Source: a virus (Duplodnaviria > Heunggongvirae > Uroviricota > Caudoviricetes). Taken from it: DNA of 15,255 nucleotides. A program made the position numbers and the translations under genes. The notes beneath the pieces are model-generated. The model made no database searches and was not told the DNA's origin. It saw only the letters and a program-made list of their open reading frames with translations. Position 1 is the first letter of the stretch, and every line of letters begins with the position of its first letter. The DNA is taken from the IMG/VR virus record IMGVR_UViG_3300029843_000046; one strand, written 5' to 3'. Shown here in pieces: positions 9,393 through 15,255 of this stretch.

Positions 9393-9438
9393 AAAGAATA
9401 AAAAAATCCCGCAGTGATCGCGGACAGGAACTGCGGGA
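9391..9438 (-). terminator. Minus-strand intrinsic terminator: 8-bp stem (9431-9438 / 9407-9414), then a U-run on the minus strand from 9406 to 9391
   Basis: Inverted repeat TCCCGCAG ... CTGCGGGA with a 16-nt loop. On the minus strand it is followed by TTTTTTTATTCTTTTT; on the + strand no T-run follows, so it is oriented for leftward transcription. Confidence 0.5.
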
Positions 9439-9496
9439 GAGTTACGAAGATTAAGTGTAAGGAATTATTCTTATATCACGACAAAAAAATTAACGC
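9395..9496 (-). ncRNA. Candidate ~100-nt small RNA in the I-J spacer, antisense to the late operon (predicted only)
   Basis: Bounded by the minus-strand promoter (-10 TATAAT at 9508-9503) and the minus-strand terminator (9438-9391). The AU-rich body has no ATG in any frame. Start and end are approximate. Confidence 0.3.
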
Positions 9497-9502
9497 AGAG
9501 AA

Positions 9503-9530
9503 ATTATACGCGCCACAGTCAGTTTGTGAA
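9503..9530 (-). promoter_or_regulatory. Sigma70-like promoter on the minus strand: -35 TTCACA (9530-9525), 16-bp spacer, -10 TATAAT (9508-9503)
   Basis: Read directly from the reverse complement: TTCACA-aactgactgtggcgcg-TATAAT, with an AT-rich upstream region and a second TTCACA copy 8 bp further upstream. Predicted transcription start near 9496. Confidence 0.45.
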
Positions 9531-9602
9531 AATGTGAAGATATTCAGAATTTTTATGCCATTACCGGTTTTAACCAACAGGATTATCGGTGGGCATGAAA
9601 GA

Positions 9603-9638
9603 AAACCCCGGTATCTGCTGATACCGGGGTTTCTCTTT
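9603..9638. terminator. Perfect 12-bp hairpin (AAACCCCGGTAT / ATACCGGGGTTT, loop CTGCTG) with T-rich flanks on both strands; possibly bidirectional
   Basis: Left arm 9603-9614, right arm 9621-9632, read from the sequence. CTCTTT follows on the + strand and TTTTC on the minus strand. Confidence 0.55.
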
Positions 9639-9735
9639 AGCATGGCAGAAATGTGTTTCATGCTTTTCGGGCGAAGGATATCCGACTTCTGTACGGAATG
9701 GCAAGTGGCGGTTAATTTATTCAGGGGAAGGCTGT

Positions 9736-12700
9736 ATGGGAAAAGGTGGCGGTAAGGCACACACGCCTCGTGAGGCGAAGGATAATCTCAAATCCACGCA
9801 GATGATGAGCGTGATTGATGCGATTGGTGAGGGACCGATAGAAGGTCCGGTGAAGGGACTGCAGAGTATCCTGGTGAACAAAACCCCGCTGACGGACACG
9901 GACGGTAATCCCGTGATACACGGTGTGACGGCGGTCTGGCGCGCCGGGGAGCAGGAGCAGACACCACCGGAAGGCTTTGAGTCCTCCGGAGCTGAAACCG
10001 GACTGGGCGTGGAAGTGACGAAGGCAAAACCGGTGACGCGCACCATTACGTCCGCGAACATTGACCGCCTGCGGGTTACCTTCGGGGTGCAGTCACTGGT
10101 GCAGACCACGTCAAAGGGCGACCGTAATCCTTCCTCTGTCCGGATTCTGATTCAGTTACAGAGTAATGGCCGCTGGGTGACGGAAAAGGATGTCACCATT
10201 AACGGCAAGACCACCTCGCAGTTCCTGGCGTCGGTGATTCTGGATAATCTGCCGCCCCGCCCCTTTAACATCCGGATGGTCCGGGAGACGGCGGACAGCA
10301 CCACGGACCAGTTGCAGAATAAGACGCTCTGGTCGTCATACACCGAAATCATCGATGTGAAACAGTGCTACCCGAACACGGCGATTGTGGGCCTGCAGGT
10401 GGATGCGGAGCAGTTTGGTGGTCAGCAGATGGCTGTGAACTACCATATCCGCGGTCGCATCATTCAGGTGCCGTCAAACTATGACCCGGAAAAACGCACG
10501 TACAGTGGTATCTGGGACGGCAGCCTGAAACCGGCATACAGCAACAATCCGGCCTGGTGTCTGTGGGACATGCTGACTCACCCGCGCTACGGCATGGGAA
10601 AACGTCTGGGGGCGGCGGATGTGGACAAGTGGGCGCTGTATGCCATCGGGCAGTACTGCGACCAGACGGTCCCGGATGGTTTCGGGGGGACCGAGCCGCG
10701 GATGACCTTTAATGCGTACCTGGCACAACAGCGTAAGGCGTGGGACGTTCTCAGTGATTTCTGCTCTGCGATGCGCTGTATGCCGGTATGGAACGGTCAG
10801 ACGCTGACGTTTGTTCAGGACCGCCCGTCGGATGTGGTGTGGCCGTACACCAACAGCGATGTGGTGGTGGATGATAACGGCGTGGGGTTCCGCTACAGCT
10901 TCAGTGCCCTGAAGGACCGGCACACGGCGGTGGAGGTGAATTACACCGACCCGCAGAACGGGTGGCAGACCTCCACGGAACTGGTGGAAGACCCGGAAGC
11001 CATACTGCGCTACGGACGCAACCTGCTGAAGATGGACGCGTTCGGCTGTACCAGCCGCGGTCAGGCCCACCGTGCCGGACTGTGGGTGATAAAGACCGAA
11101 CTGCTGGAAACGCAGACGGTGGATTTCACGCTCGGGTCTCAGGGGCTGCGGCACACACCCGGTGACATCATTGAAATCTGTGATAACGACTATGCCGGAA
11201 CCCTGACCGGCGGACGTGTCCTGTCCATCGATGCCGCCACCCGCACCCTGACGCTGGACCGTGAAGTGACACTTCCGGAGACCGGTGCCGCCACGGTGAA
11301 CCTGATTAACGGTAGCGGTAAGCCGGTGAGTGTGGACATCACCGCACACCCCGCGCCGGACCGGATACAGGTCAGTACCCTGCCTGATGGTGTGGAGACA
11401 TACGGGGTGTGGGGACTCTCCCTGCCGTCACTGCGCCGTCGCCTGTTCCGCTGTGTCTCCGTCCGGGAAAACACGGACGGCACCTTTGCCATCACGGCGG
11501 TGCAGCACGTACCGGAAAAAGAAGCCATCGTGGATAACGGGGCCCGCTTTGAGCCGCAGTCAGGCACCCTGAACAGCGTTATCCCACCGGCAGTGCAGCA
11601 CCTGACGGTGGAGGTGAGCGCAGCTGACGGCCAGTATCTGGCGCGGGCGAAATGGGACACGCCGCGGGTGGTGAAGGGCGTGCGCTTCAGTCTGCGCCTG
11701 ACCAGTGGTAAGGGAACGGATGCCAGACTGGTGACCACCGCTATCACCGCAGACACGGAGCACCGTTTCAGCGGCCTGCCGCTCGGGGAATACACCCTGA
11801 CGGTGCGGGCGATAAACAGCTATGGCCAGCAGGGTGAACCCGCCACCACCACCTTCCGGATTAACGCGCCAGCAAAACCCGCCACCATTGAGCTGACGCC
11901 GGGGTATTTTCAGATAACGGCGGTCCCGCGTCTTGCGGTGTATGACCCGACGGTACAGTTTGAACTCTGGTTCTCAGAAAAACGCATCACGAACACGGCA
12001 CAGGTGGAAAAATCTGCCCGTTATCTGGGGACCGGCAGTCAGTGGACTGTCCAGGGGAGCCGGATTAAGCCGGGGACGGATTTCTGGTTTTACGTGCGCA
12101 GCGTCAACCTGGTGGGAAAATCTGCTTTTGTGGAAGCCAGCGGGCAGCCCAGCAATGATGGTGAAGGGTATCTGGAAATTTTCCGGGGGCTGATAGATGA
12201 GACGCTGCTGGGCCAGGCACTGAAAAAGCGCATTGATGCTTCAGCGCTGCGTACGGAGGTCACGCAACTGGAAGAAGATATCCGTCAGCGGATGGACACG
12301 GATATCGCAGAAGTGACCCGGAAAATCGGGAAGGCGGAAAACAGCCTCACGCAGCTGGTTGCGAAAAAGAATGAGGACCAGACACTGGCCATCGCGCAGG
12401 TGAGCCAGAAAGTGGACCGGGTGAGCAGTGAAATCTCACAGACTGTCAGCCAGGGGCAGTCAGAAAACGCCCGACAGATAGCACAGGTCCGCCAGTACGT
12501 GGATAAAAAAGGGAGTGAAATTACCTCGACCACGGATAAAAAGCTGGGTGACCAGGCCGTGACCATACAGCAAATCCAGCGGGTTCAGTCAGACACGCGC
12601 AATGAGCTGAATGCCATGTATATGCTGAAGGTGCAGAAAACAAAAAACGGTATTCCCTATGTGGCCGGGATTGGTGCGGGGATTGAGGATGTTGATGGTC

Positions 12701-13428
12701 AGACCCTGAGTAACATTCTGCTGCAGGCCGATCGCATTGCGATGATTACCCCGGAGAACGGCAACACCACGCCGCTGTTTGTGGCGCAGGGGAATCAGCT
12801 GTTCATGAACGACGTGTTCCTGAAGCGACTGTTTGCGGTGAGCATCACGTCATCCGGCAATCCTCCTACGTTTTCCCTGACGCCGGATGGCAGGCTGGCA
12901 GCCCGCAATGCGGATATCAGTGGAGCCATCACGGCGAATACCGGCACGCTCAATAATGTCACCATTAACGAGAACTGTGTCATCAGAGGGAAACTGTCTG
13001 CAAACCAGATTGAAGGCGATCTCGTTAAAACAGTGGGTAAGGCTTTCCCCCGTGACTCCCGTGCACCGGAGAGGTGGCCATCAGGGACCATTACCGTCAG
13101 GGTTTATGACGATCAGCCGTTTGACCGGCAAATTGTTATTCCGGCGGTGGCATTCAGCGGTGCCAGACATGAGCGGGAGAATAACGATATTTATTCGTCA
13201 TGCCGCCTGATAGTACGGAAAAACGGTGCTGAAATTTATAACCGTACCGCGCTGGATAATACGCTGGTTTACAGTGGTGTTATTGATATGCCTGCTGGTC
13301 GCGGCCACATGACGCTGGAGTTTTCTGTATCAGCATGGTGGGTAAATGGCTGGTATCCCACAGCAAGTATCAGCGATTTGCTGGTTGTTGTGATGAAGAA
13401 AGCCACTGCAGGCATCACGATTAGCTGA
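9736..13428 (+). CDS. J: Central tail fibre / host specificity protein J
   Basis: 1230 aa with AGGGGAAGG ribosome-binding site. N-terminus [22 protein letters not shown] and long blocks ([96 protein letters not shown], the C-terminal block ending [17 protein letters not shown]...[19 protein letters not shown]) match lambda gpJ as I recall it. Confidence 0.95.
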
Positions 13429-13446
13429 ATTTTATAACCCCAATAC

Positions 13447-13472
13447 GGGCGCCAGAAATGGCGCCTTTTTTA
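13447..13472 (+). terminator. Intrinsic terminator downstream of J (7-bp stem GGCGCCA/TGGCGCC, GAAA loop, then TTTTTTATT)
   Basis: Stem 13448-13454 / 13459-13465 with a GAAA tetraloop and a T-run at 13466-13472, read from the sequence. Confidence 0.7.
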
Positions 13473-13495
13473 TTGCAGAAAAGCGAGAGGTAATT

Positions 13496-14095
13496 ATGCG
13501 TAAATTATGTGCTGTTATTCTGTCCGCAGTAGTCTGGCTGGTTGCCGCTGGTACGCCAGCGAGCGCAGCAGAGCATCAGTCCACACTAAGCGCCGGGTAT
13601 CTTCAGACCCACACTGATATGCCAGGCAGCGATAATCTGAACGGGATTAACGTGAAATACCGTTATGAGTTTACGGACGCGCTGGGGCTGATTACGTCCT
13701 TCAGTTATGCCAATGCTGAGGATGAGCAAAAAACGCACTACAGCGATACCCGCTGGCATGAAGATTCCGTGCGTAACCGCTGGTTCAGCGTGATGGCGGG
13801 GCCATCTGTACGCGTGAATGAATGGTTCAGTGCTTATGCGATGGCAGGTGTGGCTTACAGCCGTGTGTCGACGTTCTCCGGGGATTATCTCCGCGTAACT
13901 GACAACAAGGGGAAAACGCACGATGTGCTGACCGGAAGTGATGACGATCGCCACAGCAACACGTCTCTGGCGTGGGGAGCTGGCGTGCAGTTTAACCCGA
14001 CCGAATCCGTGACCATTGATATTGCTTATGAAGGTTCCGGTAGTGGCGACTGGCGAACGGATGCATTTATTGTTGGTATCGGATACCGTTTCTGA
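13496..14095 (+). CDS. lom: Lom outer-membrane protein (Ail/Lom/PagC/OmpX family 8-strand beta-barrel); moron
   Basis: 199 aa with a signal peptide (MRKLCAVILSAVVWLVAAGTPASA then AE) and a C-terminal beta-barrel signature (DIAYEGSGSGDWRTDAFIVGIGYRF) ending in Phe. Conserved blocks (NGINVKYRYE, VMAGP, SAYAMAGVA) match lambda Lom as I recall it. It lies between J and stf, as in lambda. Confidence 0.9.
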   Translation: MRKLCAVILSAVVWLVAAGTPASAAEHQSTLSAGYLQTHTDMPGSDNLNGINVKYRYEFTDALGLITSFSYANAEDEQKTHYSDTRWHEDSVRNRWFSVMAGPSVRVNEWFSAYAMAGVAYSRVSTFSGDYLRVTDNKGKTHDVLTGSDDDRHSNTSLAWGAGVQFNPTESVTIDIAYEGSGSGDWRTDAFIVGIGYRF

Positions 14096-14199
14096 CAACA
14101 GACGCCGATTTATCTTCTGTAAATATTGTTATGATACGCAGGTTCATCCGCCTTATGGGGTGAACTGCGTTTGAGGAAACGTAAAGTTACACTGTCCTG

Positions 14200-14233
14200 A
14201 AGCCCGTGGCGTCACTGCTGCGGGCTTTTTTTA
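14200..14233 (+). terminator. Intrinsic terminator between lom and stf (stem AAGCCCG / CGGGCTT, then T-run)
   Basis: Inverted repeat 14200-14206 / 14221-14227 with a 14-nt loop, followed by a run of T's; read from the sequence. Confidence 0.6.
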
Positions 14234-14246
14234 TTGGTGGAAAAGT

Positions 14247-15255
14247 ATGACAGTAAAAATTTCTGGCGTGCTTAAAGATGGCACAGGAAAACCAGTACAG
14301 AACTGCACCATTGTGCTGAAGGCCAGACGGACCAGCAGCACGGTGGTGGTGAACACGGTGGCCTCTGAAAATCCGGATGAAGCCGGGCGTTACAGCATGG
14401 ATGTTGAGTATGGCCAGTACAGCGTCACCCTGCTGGTTGAAGATTTTCCGCCTTCACATGCCGGGACCATTACCGTCTATGAAGGTTCCAGACCAGGTAC
14501 GCTGAATGATTTTCTCGGCGCCATGACGGAGGATGATGTTCGTCCGGAGGCACTGCGCCGTTTTGAGCTGATGGTGAATGAAGTGGCACGTCATGCCGGA
14601 GCGTCATCACAGAGTGCAGCGGCGGCAAAGAAATCCGAAACGGCAGCAGCCTCATCGAAGAATGCGGCGAAAACCTCAGAAACGAATGCAGCTAACAGCG
14701 CACAGGCGGCAGCGGCCTCGCAGACTGCATCGGCAAACTCCGCGACAGCAGCCAAAAAATCAGAAACCAGCGCGAAAAATAGCGAGACAGCCACAAAGGC
14801 CAGCGAAAAAAACGCAAAATCCAGCCAGACGGCAGCGAAAACCAGTGAGACGAATGCCAAAGACAGTGAAGCCAACGCAAAGGTGAGCGAAACAGCGGCG
14901 GCGAACTCGGCGAAAGCATCGGCAGCAAGCCAGACGGCAGCAAAAGCAAGTGAAGATGCTGCCAGAGAATACGCAAACCAGACAGCAGAGCCGTACAGAT
15001 ATGTTTTACAGCCGCTGCCGGATGTGTGGATACCCTTTAATGATTCGCTGGATATGATTACGGGCTATTCTCCGGGTTATAAAAAAGTGAAGATTGGTGA
15101 TAATGTGGTTCAGGTTGCCAGTGATAAACAGGTTAATTTCAGTCGCGCATCAACGGCAACATATATCAACAAATCTGGCGAACTGAAAACGGCGGAAATT
15201 AATGAGCCGCGATTTGAGTGTGATGGCCTGCTTATTGAGGGACAAAGAACGAACT
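14247..15255 (+). CDS. stf: Side tail fibre protein Stf, 5' portion (truncated by window end)
   Basis: ATG at 14247; the frame is open for 336 codons to the window edge. It is absent from the ORF track because it has no stop in the window. N-terminus MTVKISGVLKDGTGKPVQNCTI...GRYSMDVEYGQYSV...FPPSHAGTITVYE matches lambda Stf (orf-401) as I recall it, followed by an Ala/Ser/Thr/Lys/Glu-rich quasi-repetitive shaft. Confidence 0.85.
   Translation, partial: MTVKISGVLKDGTGKPVQNCTIVLKARRTSSTVVVNTVASENPDEAGRYSMDVEYGQYSVTLLVEDFPPSHAGTITVYEGSRPGTLNDFLGAMTEDDVRPEALRRFELMVNEVARHAGASSQSAAAAKKSETAAASSKNAAKTSETNAANSAQAAAASQTASANSATAAKKSETSAKNSETATKASEKNAKSSQTAAKTSETNAKDSEANAKVSETAAANSAKASAASQTAAKASEDAAREYANQTAEPYRYVLQPLPDVWIPFNDSLDMITGYSPGYKKVKIGDNVVQVASDKQVNFSRASTATYINKSGELKTAEINEPRFECDGLLIEGQRTN

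What the first reader, a model, noticed from the sequence alone, without database searches (positions are those of the whole stretch)
13429..14233. lom moron cassette bracketed by intrinsic terminators
lom encodes an Ail/Lom/PagC-family outer-membrane beta-barrel, a family linked to adhesion and serum resistance. It sits between terminators at 13447-13472 and 14200-14233. This is the usual moron arrangement: expressed from the prophage independently of the late operon and of benefit to the host, not to the virion. It is the only clear lysogenic-conversion-type gene in the window.
Basis: partly seen in the sequence, partly recalled or inferred. Interest (0 to 1): 0.45.

Follow-up and report, generated by a model that had tools for sequence, protein, structure and literature searches.

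The report
Prophage lom gene between two terminators
This is the well-known lom outer-membrane protein gene of a lambda-like E. coli prophage, flanked by two real terminator hairpins, but no promoter of its own was found, so the "independent moron" reading is only partly supported.

Summary
A 199-aa ORF (13496-14098) is a full-length Ail/Lom protein (Pfam PF06316, 425 bits; 3e-48 to the solved lambda Lom). It lies between two strong hairpin-plus-T-run terminators, 13447-13472 and 14199-14235. Both are present in every related locus examined, and the upstream stem shows compensatory changes. The stretch is 100% identical to a CFT073 prophage, and RefSeq already annotates the gene.

The "self-contained moron" reading is only partly supported:
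- lom is extra DNA, since phage PhiR12_4 goes from J to stf without it.
- Only 23 nt separate the upstream T-run from the lom ATG, so there is no room for a promoter.
- No sigma-70 candidate in the J 3' end beats shuffled sequence.
- lom GC matches its neighbours.
- A 97%-identical ortholog in EPEC E2348/69, with an identical T1 hairpin, T-run, Shine-Dalgarno and T2, is silent in published lysogen RNA-seq.
- Papers citing the lambda ribosome-profiling study describe lom as strongly expressed late.

Most likely lom is a passenger of the late operon, read by Q-antiterminated polymerase and kept off otherwise.

It is also not the only accessory unit in the window. A PasB-like sRNA gene sits on the minus strand between I and J. 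The long lom-stf spacer carries a conserved TGnTATAAT-like motif whose function is untested.

The parts
9736..13428 (+). J (tail tip attachment protein, 1230 aa). This is the upstream late gene, and its stop is 18 nt before T1.
   Evidence: Pfam domains Ig_J, FNIII-A_GpJ, Phage-tail_3, Ig_GpJ_C and others. PDB gpJ matches.
13447..13472 (+). T1: intrinsic-terminator hairpin GGGCGCCA-GAAA-TGGCGCCT followed by TTTTTTAT.
   Evidence: -16.5 kcal/mol, z = -3.9. Present in 87/87 loci. Compensatory changes at two stem pairs. Lambda has a weaker hairpin plus TTTTATT at the same place.
13485..13490 (+). Shine-Dalgarno GAGAGG, 5 nt before the lom ATG.
   Evidence: Read from the sequence. Invariant in all 16 upstream variants and in lambda.
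13496..14098 (+). lom CDS, 199 aa plus stop: an Ail/Lom-family 8-stranded outer-membrane beta-barrel.
   Evidence: PF06316 at 425 bits over 1-199/199. PHROG 108 'Lom outer membrane protein'. PDB 9wso_C lambda Lom 3e-48, Ail 3qra 9e-20, OmpX 1e-19. RefSeq names it 'Ail/Lom family outer membrane beta-barrel protein' in CFT073.
13496..13567 (+). Predicted Sec signal peptide MRKLCAVILSAVVWLVAAGTPASA, with cleavage after ASA.
   Evidence: Read from the translation. Mature Ail and OmpX chains align from residue 26-29 onward. SignalP was not run.
14099..14198 (+). Extra segment of the long-type lom-stf spacer, absent from lambda and VT1-Sakai. It holds hairpins at 14142-14165 and 14166-14183.
   Evidence: The spacer 14099-14246 is found in 1650 of 5426 complete E. 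coli genomes with no annotated feature under any listed match except one pseudogene row.
14127..14135 (+). Extended -10-like motif TGTTATGAT. It reads TGnTATAAT in four other spacer variants. Function is untested.
   Evidence: Alignment A3. The PWM score of 8.0 equals the shuffle median for this AT-rich spacer. No compensatory changes in the downstream RNA. No sRNA is reported here in EPEC RIL-seq.
14199..14235 (+). T2: intrinsic-terminator hairpin (13 pairs) plus a run of 7 T, 12 nt before the stf ATG.
   Evidence: -24 kcal/mol, z = -4.6. Present in 85/85 evaluable loci. Lambda has a different hairpin at the same place. Unrelated DNA begins right after the T-run in L022, L027, L057 and L070.
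14247..15254 (+). stf (side tail fibre) N-terminal part, which runs off the window. It is the downstream late gene and must be transcribed through T1 and T2.
   Evidence: PF08400 phage_tail_N at 228 bits. PHROG tail fibre families.

Best explanation
The stretch is the lom gene of a lambda-like prophage. The window is identical to an E. coli CFT073 prophage over 13300-14400.

The protein. Lom is made with a Sec signal peptide. It is inserted by the BAM machinery, which recognises its C-terminal YRF, as an 8-stranded Ail/OmpX-type barrel in the outer membrane.

How it is transcribed. The gene sits inside the late operon, between J and stf. It has an intrinsic terminator directly upstream (T1) and one directly downstream (T2), and no detectable promoter of its own. 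The most likely mode of expression is therefore read-through by Q-modified, terminator-resistant RNA polymerase coming from the late promoter. That same polymerase must cross T1 and T2 to express stf. In the repressed prophage, T1 stops stray transcription coming out of J, so lom stays at or near background.

What is shown and what is inferred. The gene identity, the two hairpins, their conservation and covariation, and the lack of space for a promoter are shown. The silence of a near-identical ortholog in a lysogen comes from published data. Dependence on Q and actual termination at T1 and T2 are inferred.

What Lom does. This is taken from the lambda literature. It may act in adhesion in lysogens, and/or in blocking adsorption of the phage's own kind late in infection.

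Confidence. About 0.97 for the gene identity and the terminators, and about 0.55-0.6 for the mode of expression.
For: Identity: profile and PDB matches; 100% identity to CFT073 and other strains, annotated as Ail/Lom.

Terminators. They sit at the same positions in lambda with different sequences.

No promoter: there are 23 nt between T1's T-run and the ATG. No + strand consensus site was found. The PWM maximum of 8.0 does not exceed the shuffle median of 8.5, whereas the PasB promoter in the same window scores 13.6. Lambda also has no good candidate, with a best score of 6.1. PMC2147009 states that little is known about the lom promoter and that lom was not detected in lysogen arrays.

[quoted passage not shown] Both cite Liu et al. 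2013.

Silence in a lysogen: E2348/69 PP6 lom is 97% identical over 13400-14260, with identical T1 hairpin, T-run, SD and T2. Its baseMean is 2.0 and 0.34. In the same runs PasB from the same prophage is 482 and 1082, J is 15 and 6.7, and stf is 7 and 5.3.

stf lies 12 nt after T2, so late transcription must pass both terminators.
Against: Lambda lom is repeatedly reported as expressed in lysogens (Barondess and Beckwith 1990, and Liu 2013, as cited in PMC7067206 and PMC12366544). Some promoter or leak must therefore exist at least in lambda. Lambda's T1 is weaker, with a centroid energy of -8.1 kcal/mol and z = -0.5.

The EPEC data cover only two culture conditions and another strain. A condition-specific or non-sigma-70 promoter would be missed by my scans.

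I could not read Liu et al. 2013 directly.

Termination at T1 and T2, and Q-dependent read-through, were not measured.
Confidence: 0.6

Rival explanations
1. Classical moron. lom has its own sigma-70 promoter in the 3' end of J, is transcribed constitutively from the repressed prophage, ends at T2, and serves the host through adhesion or serum resistance.
For: Lambda lom is cited as expressed in lysogens and as a moron product. lom is extra DNA relative to PhiR12_4. A terminator follows the gene. In the short-tailed Stx phage phi24B, a distant lom (33% identity) does have an AT-rich upstream region with better promoter scores (9.2), no upstream terminator, and its own terminator downstream.
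Against: Any promoter in J would have to fire through T1, an 8-bp GC-rich hairpin with 6 U that is conserved with covariation. No candidate exceeds chance. GC is the same as the flanks. The ortholog with an identical T1 hairpin, T-run, SD and T2 is at background in lysogen RNA-seq.
Confidence: 0.15
2. Conditionally expressed conversion gene. lom is driven by a regulated or non-canonical promoter, for example one that responds to host signals as for pagC, ail or rck. T1 would act as an attenuator that is overcome only in the host niche.
For: Family members such as PagC, Ail and Rck are environmentally regulated (general knowledge, not tested here). [quoted passage not shown] The conserved TTTATAACCCC motif between the J stop and T1 travels with lom even behind a divergent J (L052).
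Against: No alternative fold competing with T1 was seen in the 41-nt fold. No promoter-like element was found. The ortholog is silent both in virulence-activating DMEM and in non-activating conditions.
Confidence: 0.15
3. The hairpins are mainly RNA-processing or stability elements of the long late transcript, acting as 3'-end protectors of the J and lom segments, and are not functional terminators.
For: Q-modified polymerase ignores terminators (established lambda biology). The selective value of the hairpins during lytic growth could therefore lie in mRNA stability. Stem covariation shows selection for structure, not for termination as such.
Against: Both hairpins carry the full terminator signature, including uninterrupted T-runs of 6-7 that are conserved in all loci. 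A stability hairpin does not need a T-run. A lom-less phage also keeps a hairpin plus T-run just before stf.
Confidence: 0.1

Closest known systems
Bacteriophage lambda lom (NP_040601, 206 aa; solved as PDB 9wso chain C)
   Same: Same position between J and stf. Same family (3e-48, full length). A hairpin plus T-run lies before and after the gene at the same places, and the SD GAGAGG is conserved.
   Different: The protein is 199 aa, not 206, and is clearly diverged, with gaps in surface loops. T1 here is much stronger than lambda's: -16.5 against about -8 kcal/mol, and 6 U against 4. The lom-stf spacer is 148 nt here and 64 nt in lambda, and T2 has an unrelated sequence.
lom of E. coli CFT073 / E2348/69 PP6 / phage PhiR49_2 prophages
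   Same: 100% (CFT073), 98.5% (PhiR49_2) and 97% (E2348/69 PP6) DNA identity over the locus, with the same long spacer and terminators.
   Different: Nothing of substance. E2348/69 differs mainly in the signal peptide and the first loop region.
Ail (Yersinia), OmpX (E. coli), Rck/PagC (Salmonella)
   Same: Same Pfam family and clan. They align over the whole mature barrel (E ~1e-19 to Ail and OmpX; NCBIfam Rck and OmpX models hit).
   Different: The match is below the equivalog cut-offs of the Rck and OmpX models (114 against 258 bits; 106 against 176 bits), so this is not an ortholog of either. Its loops are longer. No serum-resistance or invasion function was tested for this protein.
HK97 gene 15-type morons (Juhala et al. 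2000; Cumby et al. 2012, PMC3594210)
   Same: An extra gene inserted between conserved tail genes and followed by its own terminator.
   Different: No promoter of its own was found, a terminator rather than a promoter lies directly upstream, and GC is not distinct.

Membership tests
Ail/Lom outer-membrane beta-barrel family (Pfam PF06316, OmpX-like) | Full-length profile match above the curated cut-off | tested here: met
   PF06316 at 425.1 bits (cut-off 23), residues 1-199 on profile 1-199/199. PF13505 OMP_b-brl at 82.8 bits. PHROG 108 at 356 bits.
Ail/Lom outer-membrane beta-barrel family (Pfam PF06316, OmpX-like) | Sequence relationship to members with solved 8-stranded barrel structures | tested here: met
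   9wso_C lambda Lom 3.2e-48, Ail 3qra 9e-20, OmpX 1qj8/2m06 1e-19, each over the whole mature part. No structure was predicted here.
Ail/Lom outer-membrane beta-barrel family (Pfam PF06316, OmpX-like) | N-terminal signal peptide and C-terminal aromatic beta-signal | tested here: met
   MRK + 16 hydrophobic residues + ASA|AE, and a C-terminus GYRF, read from the translation. SignalP was not available.
Ail/Lom outer-membrane beta-barrel family (Pfam PF06316, OmpX-like) | Adhesion or serum-resistance activity | not testable with these tools
   Only literature on lambda Lom (adhesion). Serum resistance in lambda is attributed to bor, not lom.
Moron (Juhala et al. 2000; Cumby et al. 2012) | Extra DNA relative to otherwise syntenic phages | tested here: met
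   PhiR12_4 has J followed by an stf-like gene with a 182-nt spacer and no lom. Yersinia phage P840 also lacks it. The PhiR12_4 J C-terminus differs, so the exact insertion boundaries could not be defined.
Moron (Juhala et al. 2000; Cumby et al. 2012) | Own promoter upstream of the gene | tested here: not met
   There are 23 nt between T1 and the ATG. No consensus site was found. The PWM maximum of 8.0 is at or below the shuffle median of 8.5. This is an in-silico sigma-70 test only, so other promoter types are not excluded.
Moron (Juhala et al. 2000; Cumby et al. 2012) | Own terminator downstream | tested here: met
   T2. Unrelated DNA starts right after its T-run in four loci. A terminator also precedes stf in a lom-less phage, so ownership of T2 is ambiguous.
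Moron (Juhala et al. 2000; Cumby et al. 2012) | Base composition distinct from the neighbours | tested here: not met
   GC is 0.53-0.55 across lom, 0.52-0.56 in the J 3' kb, and 0.52-0.56 in stf.
Moron (Juhala et al. 2000; Cumby et al. 2012) | Expression from the repressed prophage | tested here: inconclusive
   The near-identical E2348/69 PP6 ortholog is at background in published RNA-seq. Lambda lom is reported as expressed in lysogens but was not detected in one array study. There are no data for this prophage itself.
Intrinsic (Rho-independent) terminator | GC-rich hairpin immediately followed by a U-run, on the transcribed strand only | tested here: met
   T1 and T2. By reading the sequence, neither reverse complement is followed by a T-run.
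Intrinsic (Rho-independent) terminator | Stem maintained by compensatory change | tested here: met
   T1: 2 of 8 pairs changed on both sides and 100% of cells are paired. T2: only loop and wobble changes, so it is uninformative.
Intrinsic (Rho-independent) terminator | Measured termination | not testable with these tools
   Needs Term-seq or in-vitro transcription.

The most novel reading that the evidence does not exclude
The 87 extra bases of the long lom-stf spacer are not filler. They may be a small transcription unit of their own: an extended -10 promoter at 14127-14135 (TGTTATGAT here, TGnTATAAT in four other variants), a start near 14142, two hairpins, a single-stranded AAAGUUACACUGUCCUGA stretch, and T2 as its terminator. 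That would give an unannotated sRNA of about 90 nt. Alternatively it could be a weak lysogen promoter for stf. The spacer is carried by about 30% of complete E. coli genomes. T2 would then serve this RNA as much as lom.
Probability: 0.2. Interest if true: 0.4.

Novelty: already known. Interest (0 to 1): 0.15.

Why it matters
It matters little as a discovery. lom is a textbook accessory gene and is already annotated in this exact prophage.

The useful points are corrective. The anatomy is terminator, 23 nt, gene, terminator, with no promoter found. Together with the silence of a near-identical ortholog in a lysogen, this argues that the lom lineage should not be assumed to be a lysogenic-conversion gene. 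It fits recent suggestions that Lom acts late in infection. The lom promoter, long described as unknown, remains unmapped and is directly testable.

Tried and rejected
1. Rfam scans found nothing credible. The 1.7-kb scan at E<=10 gave only sub-threshold chance-level hits, and the whole window at E<=0.05 gave none.

2. I asked whether the phi24B microRNA-size RNA 24B_1, which maps to the 'lom-vb_24B_43 region', is the spacer element. It is not. The phi24B lom is only 33% identical, and its downstream region shares no sequence with this spacer.

3. I asked whether the spacer element is PasB. It is not. The PasB probe maps to the I-J spacer on the other strand.

4. A chimeric query (J 3' end joined to stf 5' end) was meant to count lom-less junctions in E. 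coli genomes. It failed because short-spacer lom loci fall within the tool's joining distance, so all top rows contain lom.

5. PADLOC has no model matching Lom.

6. Liu et al. 2013 could not be read. Its findings are quoted second-hand.

7. The partner chains of PDB 9wso could not be identified. They are neither J nor Stf.

8. RNAalifold on five spacer variants showed conserved folds but no compensatory changes.

9. No structure prediction or large protein searches were run, because the family assignment was already unambiguous.

Full report
**What the window is.** The window is the late-gene arm of a lambda-like prophage. It runs from the major head protein through FI, the head-closure protein, the tail genes, H, M, L, K, I and J, to lom and the start of stf. 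The stretch 13300-14400 is 100% identical to prophages of E. coli CFT073, clone D i2/i14 and others. There RefSeq annotates 'gpJ', 'Ail/Lom family outer membrane beta-barrel protein' and 'prophage tail fiber N-terminal domain-containing protein'. It is 98.5% identical to phage PhiR49_2. Similar DNA (80% identity or more) occurs in 4824 of 5426 complete E. coli genomes.

- The ORF 13496-14098 encodes 199 aa.
- T1 is GGGCGCCA-GAAA-TGGCGCCT at 13447-13466, followed by TTTTTTATT.
- T2 is a 13-pair stem at 14199-14228, followed by seven T.
- As RNA they fold at -16.5 and -24 kcal/mol (z = -3.9 and -4.6), and none of 200 shuffles fold as well.
- The raw count of terminator-like patterns in the region is not above chance (4 against 2.8 +/- 1.7). 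These two are the best, and they sit exactly in the two spacers.
- Among 87 related loci every one has T1, and all 85 evaluable ones have T2.
- Lambda has hairpin-plus-T-run elements at the same two places with different sequences.
- The T1 stem occurs as GGGCGCC/GGCGCC, GGGCGTC/GACGCC and GGGCACC/GGTGCC, with G-U intermediates. On ten distinct variants all cells pair. Two pairs changed on both sides, and the slid controls pair only 32-64%. T1 is therefore under selection as a structure.

**The gene identity is beyond doubt.**
- PF06316 Ail_Lom scores 425 bits end to end.
- PHROG 108 is 'Lom outer membrane protein'.
- The solved lambda Lom (9wso_C) matches at 3e-48, and Ail and OmpX match at about 1e-19 over the mature barrel.
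- The NCBIfam Rck and OmpX equivalog models hit well below their cut-offs, so this is a family member and not an ortholog of either.
- The N-terminus MRKLCAVILSAVVWLVAAGTPASA|AE is a typical signal peptide. The C-terminus GYRF is a typical outer-membrane beta-signal (by reading).

**Where the moron reading fails.**
- The definition quoted in PMC3594210 asks for extra DNA, a distinct GC content, and the gene's own promoter and terminator, which together allow expression from the repressed prophage.
- Extra DNA is met. The E. coli phage PhiR12_4 goes from J to an stf-like gene across 182 nt without lom, and a Yersinia relative also lacks it.
- A downstream terminator is met. In four loci unrelated DNA begins right after T2's T-run. 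A lom-less phage also has a hairpin plus T-run directly before stf, so T2 may belong to the J-stf junction as much as to lom.
- GC is not distinct.
- Most importantly, only 23 nt separate T1's T-run from the ATG, and they hold the Shine-Dalgarno sequence. A promoter cannot fit there, and a promoter in J would fire into T1.
- The consensus scan finds no + strand promoter in 12500-15255.
- My PWM scan of 12701-13520 peaks at 8.0, against a shuffle median maximum of 8.5 and a 95th percentile of 10.9. The PasB promoter in the same window scores 13.6.
- Lambda has no good candidate either. One paper says plainly that little is known about the lom promoter.

**Expression evidence from the literature.**
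- Lambda lom is cited as one of the few genes expressed in lysogens.
- One array study did not detect it.
- Two papers citing the ribosome-profiling study state that it rises strongly in the lytic cycle.
- For this lom type there is a close proxy. E2348/69 prophage PP6 carries a locus 97% identical over 13400-14260. Its T1 hairpin, T-run, SD and T2 are identical, and its spacer differs by one base.
- In the published RNA-seq tables lom (E2348C_1438) has a baseMean of 2.0 (activating) and 0.34 (non-activating). J has 15 and 6.7, stf has 7.0 and 5.3, and the sRNA PasB of the same prophage has 482 and 1082.
- Per kilobase lom is no higher than the silent late genes around it.

**Most likely mechanism.**
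- lom is a passenger of the late operon. It is transcribed when Q-modified polymerase reads through T1 and T2, which it must do to reach stf 12 nt beyond T2. Otherwise the gene is held at background by T1.
- The stronger T1 here, compared with lambda, may explain a tighter off state. This is inference.
- On function, adhesion was reported for lambda lysogens.
- A 2025 study found that expressed Lom blocks lambda-vir. It proposed that Lom limits non-productive adsorption late in infection.
- Serum resistance in lambda belongs to bor, not lom.

**Inside the finding's coordinates there is one loose end.**
- The lom-stf spacer comes in two types: a 64-nt lambda-like one, and the 148-nt one seen here, in P-EibA and in about a fifth of the fetched loci.
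- The long type occurs in 1650 of 5426 complete genomes. No annotated feature lies under any listed match, apart from one pseudogene row.
- It contains TGTTATGAT at 14127-14135. Four other variants read TGTTATAAT, TGGTATAAT or TGCTATAAT, so TG and TATAAT are kept while the middle base varies. One variant has lost the motif.
- Downstream lie two hairpins, an unpaired stretch and T2. This looks like a small RNA gene.
- The evidence is thin. The motif's PWM score equals the shuffle median for this AT-rich spacer. There are no compensatory changes. Rfam has nothing. The EPEC RIL-seq tables list no sRNA or chimera for this spacer, although one table was truncated in storage.
- I rate it at about 0.2.

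**lom is not the only accessory element of the window.**
- The 343-nt I-J spacer has no credible ORF.
- It carries, on the minus strand, a TTCACA-16-TATAAT promoter (11 of 12 matches) at 9530-9503 and a terminator at 9424-9398.
- The Northern probe used for the Hfq-dependent sRNA PasB matches 9405-9424 in 20 of 23 bases.
- PasB of E2348/69 lies in the same I-J spacer, with conserved promoter, 5' part and terminator.

**Verdict.** The gene and terminators are real but already known and annotated. The interpretation as an independently expressed, host-benefiting moron is only partly supported. Interest is low.

Noticed in passing
window 9398-9530, minus strand (I-J spacer 9393-9735): A PasB-like Hfq-dependent sRNA gene. 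It has a promoter TTCACA-16-TATAAT (9530-9503), a terminator stem at 9424-9408 plus a U-run, and a predicted RNA of about 97 nt. The published PasB probe matches 9405-9424 in 20 of 23 bases. E2348/69 PasB sits in the same I-J spacer. It is not annotated in RefSeq and has no Rfam family.
   Followed up: yes
window 9598-9638: A long perfect inverted repeat, GAAAGAAAACCCCGGTATC-TGCT-GATACCGGGGTTTCTCTTT, that looks like a bidirectional terminator. It lies in the part of the I-J spacer that has no counterpart in E2348/69 PP6. Purpose unknown.
   Followed up: no
window 14127-14235, + strand: A conserved extended -10-like motif (TGnTATAAT in other variants) followed by two hairpins and T2, in the 87-nt insert that distinguishes the long lom-stf spacer from lambda's. 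This is a candidate sRNA of about 90 nt. No experimental support was found.
   Followed up: partly
window 13500-13720 compared with L094 4542-4762: Between the window and E2348/69 PP6, almost all differences in lom fall in the signal peptide and the first ~45 mature residues. The rest of the gene and both spacers are nearly identical. This is either a mosaic joint or diversifying change in the first surface loop.
   Followed up: no
L083 around 1800-2000 (IMG/VR UViG_2534681810_000012): An IS3-family transposase end abuts the lom cassette 13 nt before the T1 hairpin, replacing J. It is an insertion, not a natural cassette boundary.
   Followed up: partly
window 14575-14700, minus strand (inside stf): A weak partial similarity to the Salmonella prophage sRNA IsrG (19.5 bits against a gathering score of 100; E = 0.012 in a 1.7-kb scan, and not recovered in the whole-window scan). 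The Pas sRNA preprint lists IsrG-like elements near PasB loci.
   Followed up: partly
window 9736-13428: J is 1230 aa against 1132 in lambda. Its C-terminal 230 residues match a recently solved 'A8 gpJ 713' chain (9wca, 1e-93) better than lambda J (1e-72). This suggests a receptor-binding domain of a different specificity class.
   Followed up: no
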